This document shows positions 19,265 through 32,414 of a stretch of 64,000 nucleotides of DNA, piece by piece; within the stretch, counting starts at the first letter, position 1, and every line of letters starts with the position of its first letter. The position numbers and the translations under genes were made by a program. The stretch comes from a virus: the IMG/VR virus record IMGVR_UViG_3300022924_000018, positions 12,637 through 76,636 of that record, one strand, 5' to 3'. The notes beneath the pieces are model-generated. The model made no database searches and had not been told where the DNA came from. It saw only the letters and a program-made list of their open reading frames with translations.

Positions 19265-19426
19265 AGCAAAAGGGTTAGTGAAATTTAACTAGTTACCTTG
19301 ATTGACGCTGTGGTAGGGCTTTATCGGTAATCTTTGCTAACTCACTAACCCTTTAGGGTTATATCTTGATGTTCTTTGTATGATTGTCCTGCCTACCACA
19401 GCGGTTTCAACCATGCATCAAAGATA
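19265..19426 (-). ncRNA. Promoter (TATCTTTG, 19419-19426) plus structured 5' leader, copy 1
   Basis: Interleaved inverted repeats 19269-19281/19342-19354 (13 bp) and 19306-19317/19392-19403 (12 bp). Confidence 0.7.
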
Positions 19427-19435
19427 TGAAATATT

Positions 19436-19627
19436 TTAATATTTAGGAACTTCTAAGTAATCAAATAGTTCCTCCCTCAATTCGTCTATTGCGGAGGTCG
19501 TTCCAGAACTTAAACCGTAAGCAGGATGCCCTAAATTCTGTGTCGCTTGTAGTAGCTTTTGTTCTGTTTCCTTTAACACCGTAAGCACCTCTTCTTTTGT
19601 TGCTGTCTCTAGTTTGTCGCTTTTCAT
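19436..19627 (-). CDS. Small protein, paralog of 34645-34842
   Basis: Shared LKETEQKLL.ATQNLGHPAYG.SS and LFDYLE. Confidence 0.7.
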   Translation of the reverse strand: MKSDKLETATKEEVLTVLKETEQKLLQATQNLGHPAYGLSSGTTSAIDELREELFDYLEVPKY

Positions 19628-19665
19628 TTTTGTTGAATTTTATAATTTTCATGTTTTCTTTTAAT

Positions 19666-19697
19666 AAAAGGTGGCGCTTATCCAAGACAACCACCTT
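19666..19697 (-). terminator. Intrinsic terminator
   Basis: aaggtgg/ccacctt stem, U tail on the minus strand. Confidence 0.55.
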
Positions 19698-19754
19698 CCA
19701 AATCTAAATTAACGCATAGCCTATGAAGCTATAATAGGGGCTCTCATCTTCCTA

Positions 19755-19946
19755 TCGTGAATGTGGAGGGACTCAAACCCTCATGGCTACTGTGTTCCTT
19801 CATTACCTTTGCGAACTCTCTAAGAAGCTTTGTTTCGGTACACACTCAATTTCACACACTTTTATGTACTCCATTTAATCGCATGACGGGATAGTGTGAA
19901 ATATAGGCCTTATTGTCTTTACCGTCTCTCTTTCCGGCACACATTC
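19755..19946 (-). ncRNA. tRNA-like RNA with a greatly expanded anticodon region
   Basis: Acceptor GAATGTG/CACATTC, D-arm CCG..CGG, T-arm GAGGG-TTTGAGT-CCCTC, about 135 nt between D- and T-arms. Confidence 0.7.
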
Positions 19947-19950
19947 ATAT

Positions 19951-20409
19951 TTACTTTTTTAAATTAATCGCATATTCCAAAATCAAAAGTGCATCTGCAT
20001 TTGCAAGTGTAACCTTAATATGAGGATATAACTGTTGTGCTTTTGCTTTAAGTTTATTTTTCCATTCGGTTGTTGATAGTTTAGACTTTGTGCCTATAAG
20101 CATTGTTTTCTGCCATGCTTGGGGAGAGGTTGTTGTTGTTTTAATTTCATTGGCAATCAAAGCCATTTCGATATGTCCGTAGCCTTGACCAAAGTTAAAC
20201 ATTGAAGAACCTCCCATTTTCGGCATACCTCCAACCTTTTCAAGCATACATTCAACATCGTAATCGTTTTGTCTTAAGGATTTAAAGAGTTCAAATAAGT
20301 CTTTTGGCGTGTCTGGCATTTTATATGAAATGATACTTCCATCAAATGTTCTAACTACTATTGCACCATTTGCTCCTGGGTCTATTGCTATTAATGTTTT
20401 ATTTTCCAT
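19951..20409 (-). CDS. RuvC-like Holliday junction resolvase
   Basis: IAIDPGANG, MLEKV, MFNFGQGYG, PQAWQK, ADALLI. Confidence 0.85.
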   Translation of the reverse strand: MENKTLIAIDPGANGAIVVRTFDGSIISYKMPDTPKDLFELFKSLRQNDYDVECMLEKVGGMPKMGGSSMFNFGQGYGHIEMALIANEIKTTTTSPQAWQKTMLIGTKSKLSTTEWKNKLKAKAQQLYPHIKVTLANADALLILEYAINLKK

Positions 20410-22481
20410 CTGCTGCGGGTTTAATCTCTCCATTATCAAGAGTGAGGGTTAGTTCTTTGTGTTCTGTTAAAATATGTCTAGCCCATTTAGCACCATCTAT
20501 AAATCCTTGTCTATAAAAAACTGCTATTTCATTATCCTTATAGTTAAACTGTGCTAATTCATCAGCATATTCAAGTATGTCTTTTTGCGTTATTGTTTCC
20601 ATATCATTTTCGTTTTTGTAATCTGCCGTCAAGTTCAATCTTAAACCCTGTACTTTTTAGCTTCTCCGCTAATTTAAGGCGTTCTGCGACACTATCTAAT
20701 TGAGGTTGTTCTTTGTCTACCGTGTAAGATATTTTGTTGTGACAGCTTATTTCATTGCCTTTAAAAGTCTGTTTCATAATTTAAAAATCTTTATCTCTTG
20801 GGTCAATTTCTTTTGCCCCCTTTATACACCAAATAAAAATACCTAAAGCTATAACACATATTCCAAATATGGTAAAAGCAGTTTCACATGTAGACATATC
20901 AAAATCTTTTAAAGGGGTTTAACAACACTTCAATTGTACTATAGAAAGGTAAAGGCATCTTATTAACAACTAACATTGGTGGTTTAGGTTGACTAATGTA
21001 ATGCTGATTAAGTGCTAATTGTGTTTCTCTAAATGTTGATTGCTTTTTCATAATGATTGGTTTAATTTGGTTAGGTAAAATTAGATTGCCAATCGCTGAC
21101 TGTACAGCGTTCCCGTCTTTTATAAATTCAATTGAACTTAAAGGTTATATCGCTTGGTTTATGGCAATCTAATGAGGTTAGTTGATATTCCAACTTGGTC
21201 TTTCATTCTCTAATTCAGCTTCCCTTCTATCACGCCTTTCTTGTTCGCTATAATCGGCTAGAACATCTGCTCTATAATCTTCTTCGTTATCCTGTTCAAT
21301 AGCTATCTGTTCAAGGGTAGGGTTGTCTATGTGCTTTTTCATAGTTTTCATGCTTTTGCAAAATCTTCCATTATTACTCCCTTATCTGTTATCGTACCTA
21401 ATTCTACACAAGTAGAATATTTTTCACTCCAAGCCTTGCAATTGTTTCTTGTTTCAGCGCCTCCATTTGATTGGGCAATTGATCTTGCCTCTTTTTCATT
21501 TTCAGCATTAATAACAAATCCAAAAGCTTTGTCAAACCAAGGTTCCCAAGGATTTACATCAGATTTTTCTAATTTATCTTTAGGTCTTAAAATAAATGTT
21601 TTCATATCTACTTATATTTAGCTTTTTCTTCTTTAGACAGTTTATCAAATTCAGGCTTTAAACTATTCATGTGTGCCTGTATCATAGGTAATACTAATCC
21701 GTTAAACCCTGAAAACCTAATAGCATACTTAAACAATTCATTCTTCTCTAGTCCTTTAAGGTCTATGGTTGTTTTTGATGTCTTTCTTTCTTTAATATCT
21801 TTCATGTGTTTATAGTGCTAGTGGTATTCTGAATGTGTGGTAAGGATATTCTTTGTCGAAGATGCTTTTCTTCTCAAACTTCTCATAAGAGAATTGTAGG
21901 TTCTTATTGCCTCCAACAATAGGCATGGTATCGTTAATTGTTAGGTACTTAAATTTTATAAATGGCGATCTTTTATCTTTACCTATATAAAGTGTACTTT
22001 CATTGGCATACCAAACTATTCTATATACTCTATCGTAAACTTTAAACTCTATCTCCCGACTAAATTCTTCATCGCCTAAAGAATTATATTGCCCCATTAT
22101 TTGAGCGCTTTCGAGGACTAATTGTATTTCTTCTAATGTATGTGGCTTCATGTGTTATAAGTTATGTGTTGCTAATAAATCAAATAGTTGCTCAAAGAAG
22201 TCATTGTCACTAGCGGTCTTAATAAAATCATTGTCACAAAACTCATCATCTCCTAAAATCCACCCGTTTCTATCTTCCTTTAATTTATAAGCTTTAAGTA
22301 GGTGTACTCTGTGAGCGTAAATACGATGTTCCATGCCATTATAAAATGGTTCGGATGCTAATGGTTCATCTCCAAAGTGAGCAGGATTAGATTTAAGTTC
22401 TTCTTCTTTATATTTCTGTAGTAAGTCATAAGACTCTTTTGTTACCATAATATATACGGCATCATCTAAATACTTTCCCAT
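20399..22481 (-). other. Small hypothetical ORFs (20399-20602, 21348-21605, 21608-21805, 21810-22151, 22155-22481 and shorter ones)
   Basis: Co-oriented, tightly packed. Confidence 0.55.
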
Positions 22482-31929: not shown

Positions 31930-31991
31930 TGCCCTTGATAACAGATTCGAACTGTTTAGCCTATTATTTCAGCTAATGCCTTAATCAAGGG
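31930..31991 (-). ncRNA. D-armless tRNA-like mini-RNA
   Basis: CCCTTGAT/ATCAAGGG acceptor stacked on AACAG-TTCGAAT-CTGTT T-arm; TTAGC/GCTAA arm. Confidence 0.65.
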
Positions 31992-31997
31992 TTTTTA

Positions 31998-32414
31998 TTA
32001 TTTATTTTTATTGTACCATTTAATAAACCAAACAACGGCATTAAAACATGATTCTATTTTAGTTTTGTATCTAGTATCTAAATCTTTTAAATCCTTAATG
32101 CCTAAATCTATTTGAGAATACCAACCTAAAAACTCTACTCTATTGTCATATTCAGTATGTAAATACACTTGTTCGTCTTTTACATTGGTTGTTTCAATCT
32201 TTTCAACCACTGGCATTAACCAATTCCAATCAGAATTATATAAAAGTTCATCCTGACTATAGTGTTTTTGTGCGCTGACAACATTTTTTAAATCTCCATA
32301 GTCTTTATATTGTGCTTTACCTATTCCATAAGTATTTGAATGAACATTATATAAACCGCCCATAAATTCAGCTATAAGCTTATTGTTTTCTATTGTTGAT
32401 TGTTGAGTATTCAT
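31998..32414 (-). CDS. Phage protein of the N..IAEFMG / DWNWL family; related to 34829-35125
   Basis: ENNKLIAEFMG...YNSDWNWLMPVVEKIE. Confidence 0.65.
   Translation of the reverse strand: MNTQQSTIENNKLIAEFMGGLYNVHSNTYGIGKAQYKDYGDLKNVVSAQKHYSQDELLYNSDWNWLMPVVEKIETTNVKDEQVYLHTEYDNRVEFLGWYSQIDLGIKDLKDLDTRYKTKIESCFNAVVWFIKWYNKNK

What the first reader, a model, noticed from the sequence alone, without database searches (positions are those of the whole stretch)
19755..19946. 190-nt tRNA-like RNA with the anticodon arm replaced by a multi-hairpin domain
Seen: perfect 7-bp acceptor (GAATGTG/CACATTC), TG linker, class II-like D-arm (CCG-GAAAGAGAGA-CGG), 5-bp T-arm with TTTGAGT loop, 3' ACGA rather than NCCA. 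The ~135-nt middle is closed by ggc(c)ta/tagcc and holds hairpins atttcacac/gtgtgaaat and tgtgtacc/ggaacaca. It lacks the G3:U70 alanine identity of tmRNA and is too short for a group I intron. Inference: tRNA-mimic scaffold (anticodon-nuclease decoy, ribosome/EF-Tu binder, or processing signal).
Basis: partly seen in the sequence, partly recalled or inferred. Interest (0 to 1): 0.75.

Follow-up and report, generated by a model that had tools for sequence, protein, structure and literature searches.

The report
Scrambled phage tRNA gene remnant
This stretch of an uncultured Bacteroidota-type phage is derived from a tRNA gene: the top half (acceptor stem plus T-arm) is intact, but there is no anticodon arm and the middle is a garbled internal duplication, so it cannot decode and is either a relic or at most a processing signal.

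Summary
The tRNA-like frame is unlikely to be chance: about 0.013 such sites are expected per shuffled window. Its 22-nt T-arm block is identical to those of genuine tRNAs elsewhere.

It is not a working tRNA and belongs to no known RNA family:
- ARAGORN finds nothing, with or without intron mode.
- Removing any single segment never produces a cloverleaf.
- Rfam's tRNA model gives one sub-threshold hit (21.4 bits, cut-off 29). The hit covers an inner 90-nt unit (19758-19847) and aligns only acceptor, U8-A9, T-arm and A73.

The "multi-hairpin domain" folds no better than shuffled sequence. It is largely a diverged direct repeat of the upstream gene's last codons plus the 5' acceptor/D region. 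This repeat supplies a second 5' acceptor strand, which pairs with a G3:U70 wobble.

No full-length homologue exists in any collection searched. One 151-nt contig from a freshwater run keeps the 3' 88 nt nearly unchanged beside a scrambled spacer.

Best reading: a rearranged, non-decoding, class II (Leu-like) tRNA remnant at a module junction, possibly still cut by tRNA-processing enzymes. This scan has noted anticodon-less or insert-bearing phage tRNA look-alikes before on other DNA. Interest is modest.

The parts
19940..19946 (-). Outer 5' acceptor strand GAATGTG (element nt 1-7). T19947 extends the pairing to 8 bp.
   Evidence: Read; inverted repeat I25; paired in the MFE fold.
19922..19937 (-). 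D-like hairpin CCG-G-AAAGAGAG-A-CGG, placed 2 nt (TG) after the acceptor strand. It has a 3-bp stem with G13/A22, as in class II tRNAs, and no GG in the loop.
   Evidence: An exact 18-mer search of IMG/VR found it in no tRNA; the one hit lay inside a methyltransferase coding sequence.
19910..19921 (-). 12-nt unpaired linker TAAAGACAATAA, where an anticodon arm should begin.
   Evidence: no 7-nt-loop hairpin here.
19785..19909 (-). Middle region (element nt 38-162). It is closed by GGC(C)TAT/GTAGCC and holds the inverted repeats 19894-19902/19849-19857 and 19837-19844/19791-19798.
   Evidence: Folded alone z = 0.02 with different pairings. It has the highest GTGTG/CACAC density in the window.
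19908..19973 (-). Repeat copy A: the last 7 codons and stop of the resolvase-like gene, a 4-nt spacer, the outer acceptor strand, the D-like hairpin and the linker.
   Evidence: Local alignment to copy B: 55 matches, 10 mismatches, 24 gap columns. 0 of 500 shuffles and 3 of 1993 real adjacent-segment pairs score as high.
19797..19884 (-). Repeat copy B (element nt 63-150): a diverged duplicate of copy A with three insertions. It contains the inner acceptor-like strand.
19841..19847 (-). Inner alternative 5' acceptor strand GAGTGTG followed by TA. It pairs with the same 3' strand with one G:U, at position 3:70.
   Evidence: Descriptor scan. The RF00005 alignment starts here.
19766..19782 (-). 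T-arm GAGGG-TTTGAGT-CCCTC. G53-C61, T54, T55, R57 and A58 are kept; U56 replaces C56.
   Evidence: It is identical in a phage tRNA-Arg and an Acidobacteriota intron-bearing tRNA. It matches tRNA-Leu(TAA) of Salmonella phage S147 at 24 of 27 positions.
19758..19765 (-). 3' acceptor strand CACATTC plus A73; no encoded CCA (CGA follows).
   Evidence: The only change in the freshwater relative is A67 to G, which keeps U6:G67.
19758..19847 (-). Inner 90-nt unit: the only sub-threshold tRNA-model match in the phage.
   Evidence: RF00005 21.4 bits (cut-off 29), E 0.002 per genome. Only acceptor, U8-A9, T-arm and A73 are aligned; the D and anticodon arms are skipped.
19951..20439 (-). Upstream gene for a RuvC-like Holliday junction resolvase. 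Its stop codon lies 4 nt before the element.
   Evidence: phrog_1770, E 2.7e-23; 188 IMG/VR relatives.
19668..19706 (-). Downstream Bacteroidota-type -7 box TAGATTTG, then a hairpin AAGGTGG...CCACCTT and a U-rich run. This is probably the start of the next transcription unit or a weak terminator.
   Evidence: Read; pattern located; not called by the terminator scan.

Best explanation
The element is what remains of a phage tRNA gene of the long-arm (class II, leucine-like) type. It sits at a recombination-prone module junction just after the resolvase gene.

A partial tandem duplication, or an unequal exchange between two diverged phages, copied the end of the resolvase gene together with the tRNA's 5' part. 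This left two alternative 5' acceptor strands and a scrambled middle, and no anticodon arm survives.

What is left is a clean acceptor/T-arm top half, plus a D-like hairpin in the outer version. The RNA would be made as the tail of the resolvase operon transcript.

By inference only: host RNase P and the 3' trimming and CCA-adding enzymes recognise just this top half. They probably still cut the element out, which would set the 3' end of the operon mRNA.

It cannot read a codon. I put the chance that this processing is kept by selection, rather than being a leftover, at about 35-40%.
For: tRNA origin.
- The 22-mer around the T-arm is identical to genuine tRNAs.
- The best match in cultured phages is tRNA-Leu(TAA) of a T5-like phage.
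- U8-G9, a 3-bp D stem with G13/A22, and A73 fit class II tRNAs.
- It is the only RF00005 candidate in the phage, at E 0.002.
- About 0.013 such sites are expected per window by chance.

Non-decoding.
- ARAGORN finds nothing, with or without introns.
- None of 3,621 single-segment deletions gives a tRNA at the default threshold.
- No hairpin with a 7-nt loop exists apart from the T-arm.
- The covariance model skips both the D and anticodon arms.

Rearrangement.
- The internal direct repeat includes a piece of the upstream coding sequence.
- The middle has no fold signal.
- In 20 relatives examined the resolvase gene is followed at once by another ORF in most, with gaps of at most about 70 nt, so this spot is a variable junction.
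- 20 of 33 relatives carry ordinary tRNAs. Several of these are insert-bearing (101-164 nt) yet still pass the tRNA cut-off, which this element does not.

A discrete RNA-gene-like unit.
- GC is 42.7%, the 99.9th percentile of 190-nt windows in the early region.
- It lies on the transcribed strand, 4 nt after a stop codon.
Against: All 15 outer stem pairs are perfect, although repeat copies A and B differ at 15% of aligned sites and by 24 gap columns. This argues for selection or a recent origin, not slow decay.

In the one relative seen (a 151-nt contig from a freshwater run), the 3' 88 nt differ at one pair-preserving site. The adjacent 35-nt spacer carries 9 substitutions and 6 indels.

Phages rarely keep 190 nt of junk.

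The class II/Leu assignment rests on few positions: 15-18 of 29 identities in the 5' part against 12-13 for other tRNAs. The D-like hairpin was found in no genuine tRNA.

Processing by RNase P or RNase Z is inferred from what those enzymes are known to need. It was not observed.
Confidence: 0.5

Rival explanations
1. A selected, anticodon-less tRNA-like RNA. The top half (acceptor, T-arm, D-like hairpin) is kept for its own sake. It might act as an RNase P/Z-defined 3'-end or stability module of the operon, or as a substrate or decoy for enzymes that read only the top half (CCA-adding enzyme, AlaRS via the inner G3:U70 pairing, LeuRS, EF-Tu).
For: - The stems are perfect despite an old-looking internal repeat.
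- The freshwater contig shows a conserved element beside a scrambled spacer, and the conserved block ends within 5 nt of the predicted 3' end.
- There is a GC peak.
- A second top-half-like element lies right after another stop codon at 31930-31993, with fold z = -2.67.
- Related phages carry a conserved 81-nt cloverleaf-less tRNA look-alike with G3:U70.
Against: - No full-length homologue exists anywhere, so there is no covariation.
- The middle is not structured.
- GUGUG/CACAC is reused in three stems, which invites misfolding.
- The phage encodes no recognisable tRNA- or RNA-processing enzyme among 84 early and middle ORFs.
- The conservation evidence is a single 151-nt contig at depth 3 and could reflect mosaic exchange.
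Confidence: 0.3
2. A working tRNA split by one or more unconventional inserts, like the 'enigmatic' introns of Lak megaphages. For example, the closing stem could serve as anticodon stem and ATTTCAC (19896-19902) as a Glu-type loop.
For: - Insert-bearing tRNAs occur in related phages: L012 has a 77-nt insert, and others run to 101-122 nt.
- Lak phage tRNA introns are reported in PMC6784885.
- ATTTCAC has U33 and R37 next to the closing stem.
Against: - No single excision gives a cloverleaf.
- This reading needs a second 12-nt removal, a bulged stem and a 2-nt variable loop.
- There is no group I core or small ribozyme (Rfam).
- The phage encodes no ligase or endonuclease gene.
- The inserts of relatives still pass the tRNA model; this element does not.
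Confidence: 0.05
3. A DNA-level element, such as protein-binding repeats or an origin or regulatory region near the replication genes. Its inverted GTGTG/CACAC motifs imitate RNA stems, and it sits next to a stray tRNA 3' fragment.
For: - The window's highest density of GTGTG/CACAC lies here, in both orientations.
- There are colinear repeated blocks.
- The stems contain almost no G:U pairs, so they give no strand signal.
- Replication-initiator-like winged-helix genes lie downstream.
Against: - The repeats are not regularly spaced iterons.
- The T-arm, the exact 7-bp closure and the hairpin at the D position are tRNA-specific.
- The region is GC-rich rather than AT-rich.
Confidence: 0.07
4. 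A tRNA 3'-end copy left by site-specific integration (att-type tRNA gene fragment), with the upstream complement arising by chance.
For: Phage att sites often carry the T-arm and acceptor 3' strand. tRNA gene fragments of this origin are common (PMC9897764, listed).
Against: - The whole 76.6-kb record has no tyrosine integrase.
- U56 would give a defective host tRNA after integration.
- Two matching 5' strands and a D-like hairpin are present.
- No bacterial genome carries the T-arm followed by this acceptor strand: the T-arm 21-mer had a single hit, whose acceptor strand differs.
Confidence: 0.04

Closest known systems
Class II tRNA-Leu genes of phages and bacteria, e.g. tRNA-Leu(TAA) of Salmonella phage S147 (NC_048012), and the intron-bearing tRNA of an Acidobacteriota MAG (L084)
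   Same: 7-bp acceptor; U8-G9; a 3-bp D stem with purine 13/A22; the same T-arm (17 of 17 with L084, 16 of 17 with S147); A73. The acceptor differs from S147 by two double, pair-keeping changes.
   Different: No anticodon arm; no GG in the D loop; U56; 135 nt in place of about 40 nt between the D and T arms; below the tRNA model cut-off (21.4 against 29 bits).
Insert- or intron-bearing phage tRNAs: the 'enigmatic' introns of Lak megaphages (PMC6784885) and the 77-nt insert in L012 found here
   Same: A phage tRNA body interrupted by a non-group-I insert; Bacteroidota-type phages; missed by default tRNA finders.
   Different: In those, removing the insert restores a cloverleaf, and the tRNA model or ARAGORN -i still calls them. 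Here no excision does.
tRNA gene fragments and pseudo-tRNAs in prokaryotic and phage genomes (PMC9897764, seen in the listing only, not read)
   Same: Partial tRNA sequence, non-decoding, created by DNA rearrangement.
   Different: Both acceptor strands and the T-arm are intact and pair perfectly. No integrase is present. The fragment is duplicated internally rather than at an att site.
tmRNA tRNA-like domain (Rfam RF00023)
   Same: Layout: acceptor and T-arm closed around a large insert that replaces the anticodon arm, with a reduced D region. The inner pairing has G3:U70 and A73.
   Different: No tmRNA model match; no tag reading frame or pseudoknots detected by ARAGORN's tmRNA mode or the tmRNA model; the outer (MFE) pairing has A3-U70; A2-U71 instead of G2-C71; half the usual length.
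tRNA-like 3'-end processing modules (MALAT1 mascRNA, mitochondrial tRNA punctuation, the T4 tRNA-cluster stable RNAs); from my own knowledge
   Same: A tRNA top half placed at the end of a longer transcript, where RNase P cutting would define the mRNA 3' end.
   Different: Those are shown experimentally and conserved. Here cutting is only inferred, and no Rfam model of such elements matches.

Membership tests
tRNA (Rfam RF00005 / ARAGORN) | 7-bp acceptor stem closed next to a 5-bp T-arm with a T54-Psi55-C56-R57-A58 loop | tested here: met
   Perfect 7 bp and 5 bp. The loop TTTGAGT keeps T54, T55, R57 and A58 but has U56.
tRNA (Rfam RF00005 / ARAGORN) | Anticodon arm: 5-bp stem with a 7-nt loop carrying U33 and R37 | tested here: not met
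   No such hairpin in the 192 nt. None after any single excision. The model skips it.
tRNA (Rfam RF00005 / ARAGORN) | Score at or above the curated cut-off, or a call by a tRNA finder | tested here: not met
   21.4 bits against 29. ARAGORN gives 0 genes in default and intron modes.
tRNA (Rfam RF00005 / ARAGORN) | D-arm with G18-G19 for the elbow contact | tested here: inconclusive
   The outer version has a 3-bp hairpin at the right place but no GG. A GA could pair with U55/U56, as in the L082 tRNA-Arg, which has G18-A19 and U56. The inner version has no D-arm.
Intron-containing tRNA (group I or Lak-type) | Exons that join to a cloverleaf | tested here: not met
   3,621 splice combinations gave 0 ARAGORN calls at the default threshold.
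Intron-containing tRNA (group I or Lak-type) | Group I catalytic core | tested here: not met
   No Intron_gpI match at E up to 10. The same model did find the intron in L084.
tmRNA | G3:U70 alanine identity in the acceptor stem | tested here: inconclusive
   The outer pairing has A3-U70. The inner alternative pairing has G3:U70 with A73.
tmRNA | tmRNA model or ARAGORN tmRNA call (tag frame, pseudoknots) | tested here: not met
   no match at E up to 10.
att-site tRNA fragment | Integrase in the element, and identity to the 3' end of a host tRNA | tested here: not met
   No PF00589 match in the 76.6-kb record. One genome hit with the T-arm, but its acceptor strand differs.
YrlA / Y-RNA-like tRNA mimics | Rfam model match; a Ro/Rsr-binding stem formed by the two ends | tested here: not met
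   No Rfam family matched at the gathering threshold or at E up to 10. Here the ends form the acceptor stem, not a Ro-binding helix.
Functional structured ncRNA in general | Conservation with covariation across homologues; expression | not testable with these tools
   No full-length homologue; only one 151-nt partial relative.

The most novel reading that the evidence does not exclude
The element is a selected 'top-half tRNA' with two competing 5' acceptor strands. The outer strand gives A3-U70. The inner strand gives G3:U70 with A73, the minimal alanine identity that AlaRS reads even in minihelices.

Two other elements may belong with it: the 62-nt element at 31930-31993, and the conserved 81-nt G3:U70 look-alikes next to the resolvase gene in related phages (L009-L011). 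Together they would define a class of phage-encoded, anticodon-less, chargeable tRNA top halves. These would act as a tmRNA-TLD-like or CCA/aaRS/EF-Tu-engaging RNA or decoy.
Probability: 0.1. Interest if true: 0.7.

Novelty: new variant of a known kind. Interest (0 to 1): 0.3.

Why it matters
If it is only a relic, it shows how phage tRNA genes erode at module junctions, and it warns that clean acceptor/T-arm pairings can outlive the tRNA. If the top half is kept by selection, it joins a growing set of phage tRNA look-alikes that cannot decode. Such RNAs would point to phage uses of the host's tRNA-processing or charging enzymes beyond translation. That is testable with simple in vitro RNase P, CCA-addition and aminoacylation assays.

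Tried and rejected
- ARAGORN in tmRNA, mitochondrial and intron modes found nothing at default thresholds. At 80-90% thresholds it gave only inconsistent calls (Asp, Tyr, Pro and others).
- Rfam at gathering threshold on the window, and at E up to 10 on 19600-20100 and 12000-37000, gave only noise.
- DNA searches gave no match in cultured phages at 1e-5. At E 10 the only RNA-related hit was the T-arm of tRNA-Leu.
- Exact-pattern scans used all 8 IMG/VR, both JGI metagenome and the single GTDB genome scan.
  - The 3' acceptor version, the 5' part, the middle, the neighbouring leader and the second element gave 0 hits.
  - The D-hairpin 18-mer hit only a methyltransferase coding sequence, at chance level.
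- 80 loci with resolvase homologues hold no similar DNA, and 20 of them examined have no comparable gap after the gene.
- The whole records of 33 relatives gave only short chance-level hits. The best was 30 nt at 87%, inside a long open reading frame (333+ aa, function unknown) of G001 that has no counterpart in the window.
- Sequencing runs: no RNA holder listed. Only the probable source run holds the whole stretch.
- T-arm-like hairpins are not enriched in the window overall.
- The idea that the 5' part is a decayed methyltransferase motif (AGKRDG) was dropped, because nothing beyond 7 residues fits.
- Earlier-findings look-up by sequence found no look-alike in other genomes.
- No covariance model was built. 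With one sequence and no candidate homologues it could only have returned generic tRNAs.

Full report
**Context.** The window is part of a 76.6-kb IMG/VR virus record that CheckV rates as complete. The only run holding the whole stretch is a leaf-litter metagenome. Its large terminase is distantly related (25% identity) to those of Flavobacterium and Cellulophaga phages.

Bases 12-36 kb are a minus-strand block of small early and middle genes: Erf, Gam, NinB, DnaB-like helicase, DnaD-like loader, HNH endonucleases and a RuvC-like resolvase. The element lies on the same strand in a 323-nt gap. It starts 4 nt after the resolvase stop codon (gene 19951-20439) and ends about 50 nt before a Bacteroidota-type -7 box and hairpin (19706-19668). 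These precede a 63-aa ORF.

A descriptor search looked for a 5-bp T-arm with a TTNRA loop, a perfect 7-bp acceptor 60-320 nt upstream, and a hairpin 2 nt after the 5' strand. It finds only this site in the window. Shuffled windows give 0.14 sites without the hairpin and 0.013 with it.

The T-arm is of genuine tRNA origin. The 22-mer around it recurs exactly in an ARAGORN-called tRNA-Arg(TCT) of two GC-rich phage contigs. It also recurs in an Acidobacteriota tRNA interrupted by a 245-nt group I intron. The best hit in cultured phages is the T-arm and 3' acceptor strand of tRNA-Leu(TAA) of a T5-like phage (24 of 27 positions). U8-G9, a 3-bp D stem flanked by G13/A22, and A73 also fit class II (Leu-type) tRNAs, although the 5' similarity is modest.

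**What it is not.**
- It is not a callable tRNA. ARAGORN finds nothing in any mode at default thresholds.
- No hairpin with a 7-nt loop exists apart from the T-arm.
- Deleting any single segment (5' end at nt 24-74, 3' start at nt 95-165; 3,621 combinations) never yields a tRNA.
- Rfam's tRNA model gives exactly one sub-threshold match in the whole phage, at 21.4 bits (cut-off 29) and E 0.002. The match is the inner 90 nt (19758-19847), not the 190-nt form. Only acceptor, U8-A9, T-arm and A73 are aligned; both the D and anticodon arms are skipped.
- There is no tmRNA, group I intron, ribozyme, YrlA or other Rfam match.
- The record has no tyrosine integrase.

By contrast, 20 of 33 related phage records carry ordinary tRNAs. 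Several insert-bearing ones (101-164 nt) still pass the tRNA cut-off. One of these is a class II tRNA with a 77-nt insert, lying about 200 nt upstream of the resolvase gene start in L012.

**The middle.** Folded alone it uses other pairings and is no more stable than shuffles (z = 0.02). The whole element has z = -1.35.

A direct repeat explains most of it. Copy A (19973-19908) holds the last seven resolvase codons, the stop, the outer acceptor strand, the D-like hairpin and the linker. It aligns with copy B (19884-19797) at 55 matches, 10 mismatches and 24 gap columns. None of 500 shuffles, and 3 of 1,993 adjacent-segment pairs from the real window, score as high.

Copy B supplies a second 5' acceptor strand, GAGTGTG, which pairs with the same 3' strand through a G3:U70 wobble. 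The GTGTG/CACAC words reused in three stems make this the densest such spot in the window.

In 20 relatives examined, the resolvase gene is followed at once by another ORF in most, and no gap exceeds about 70 nt. The site is therefore a variable module junction, where such duplication scars are expected.

**Signs of constraint.**
- All 15 outer stem pairs are perfect, although copies A and B have diverged.
- GC is 42.7%, the 99.9th percentile for the early region.
- One 151-nt contig from a freshwater run covers 19685-19838. Within it, 19751-19838 shows a single change, A67 to G, which keeps a U:G pair. The spacer 19716-19750 carries 9 substitutions and 6 indels.

This last point suggests a conserved discrete unit whose 3' edge matches the predicted RNA end. 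It is one low-depth contig from a mosaic relative, so it is suggestive only. No full-length homologue was found in IMG/VR, JGI metagenomes, GTDB genomes, cultured phages or 33 whole related records. Covariation therefore cannot be tested.

**Verdict.** The element is tRNA-derived and non-decoding (about 0.8 for those two points together). The most likely history is a class II tRNA gene scrambled by a partial duplication at a module junction (0.5 for the whole account).

By inference from the known needs of RNase P, RNase Z and the CCA-adding enzyme (my own knowledge), the intact top half is probably still recognised. It would then be cut from the operon transcript. Whether that is selected (about 35-40%) or a leftover is open.

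The boldest reading still allowed is a chargeable top-half tRNA that uses the inner G3:U70 pairing (about 0.1).

Earlier notes of this scan describe anticodon-less or insert-bearing phage tRNA look-alikes on other DNA. I used them only as leads.

Noticed in passing
window 31930-31993 (-): A 62-nt three-way junction: an 8-bp closing stem, a 5-bp arm, and a 5-bp T-arm with the canonical TTCGAAT loop. It starts about 10 nt after the stop of ORF 32001-32414. Fold z = -2.67. No Rfam or tRNA-model match and no IMG/VR exact match. It could be a second tRNA top-half-like element in the same phage.
   Followed up: partly
L009 2496-2577, L010 2596-2677, L011 2496-2577 (+): A conserved 81-nt tRNA look-alike about 430 nt upstream of the resolvase homologue in three related phage contigs. 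Its acceptor GGGCGGT/ACCGTCC has G3:U70 and A73, and it has a canonical T-arm. ARAGORN does not call it, and RF00005 did not list it in the two of three records where its position could be checked. The only model match is a weak tRNA-Sec hit (16.6 bits).
   Followed up: partly
L012 2637-2801 (+); also G024:C1:57114-57214, G025:C1:63222-63331, G032:C1:8335-8456: Phage tRNAs with 30-80-nt inserts that are not group I introns. L012 is a class II body with a 77-nt insert in the anticodon loop; ARAGORN calls it Phe(GAA), while by eye Leu(CAG) is also possible. All still pass the Rfam tRNA cut-off. They are similar in kind to the 'enigmatic' Lak megaphage tRNA introns.
   Followed up: partly
L082 3900-3974 and 5666-5768 (-); L083 likewise: A phage tRNA-Arg(TCT) with G18-A19 in the D loop and U56 in the T loop, which may be a covarying elbow pair. 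Next to it is a 101-nt gene that ARAGORN -i reads as Val(TAC) with a 32-nt insert.
   Followed up: no
window 19361-19436 and 19436 onward: In the freshwater run, a 151-nt contig is 100% identical to the leader upstream of the 257-aa winged-helix gene. It becomes unrelated exactly at 19436, the end of the 63-aa ORF. So the 63-aa ORF is a swappable module, while the leader is strongly conserved.
   Followed up: no
window 19451-19631 (-): Logan's 76.5-kb contig of the source run lays this stretch (most of the 63-aa ORF) at a second place about 61 kb away. A separate 472-nt contig carries an 81%-identical version. The small ORF therefore has a paralogue or a variant in the same sample.
   Followed up: no
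L084 7300-7635 (-): An Acidobacteriota MAG tRNA gene split by a 245-nt group I intron (Rfam Intron_gpI 26.4 bits, below the cut-off of 50; ARAGORN -i calls the tRNA). It has the unusual U56 T-loop.
   Followed up: partly
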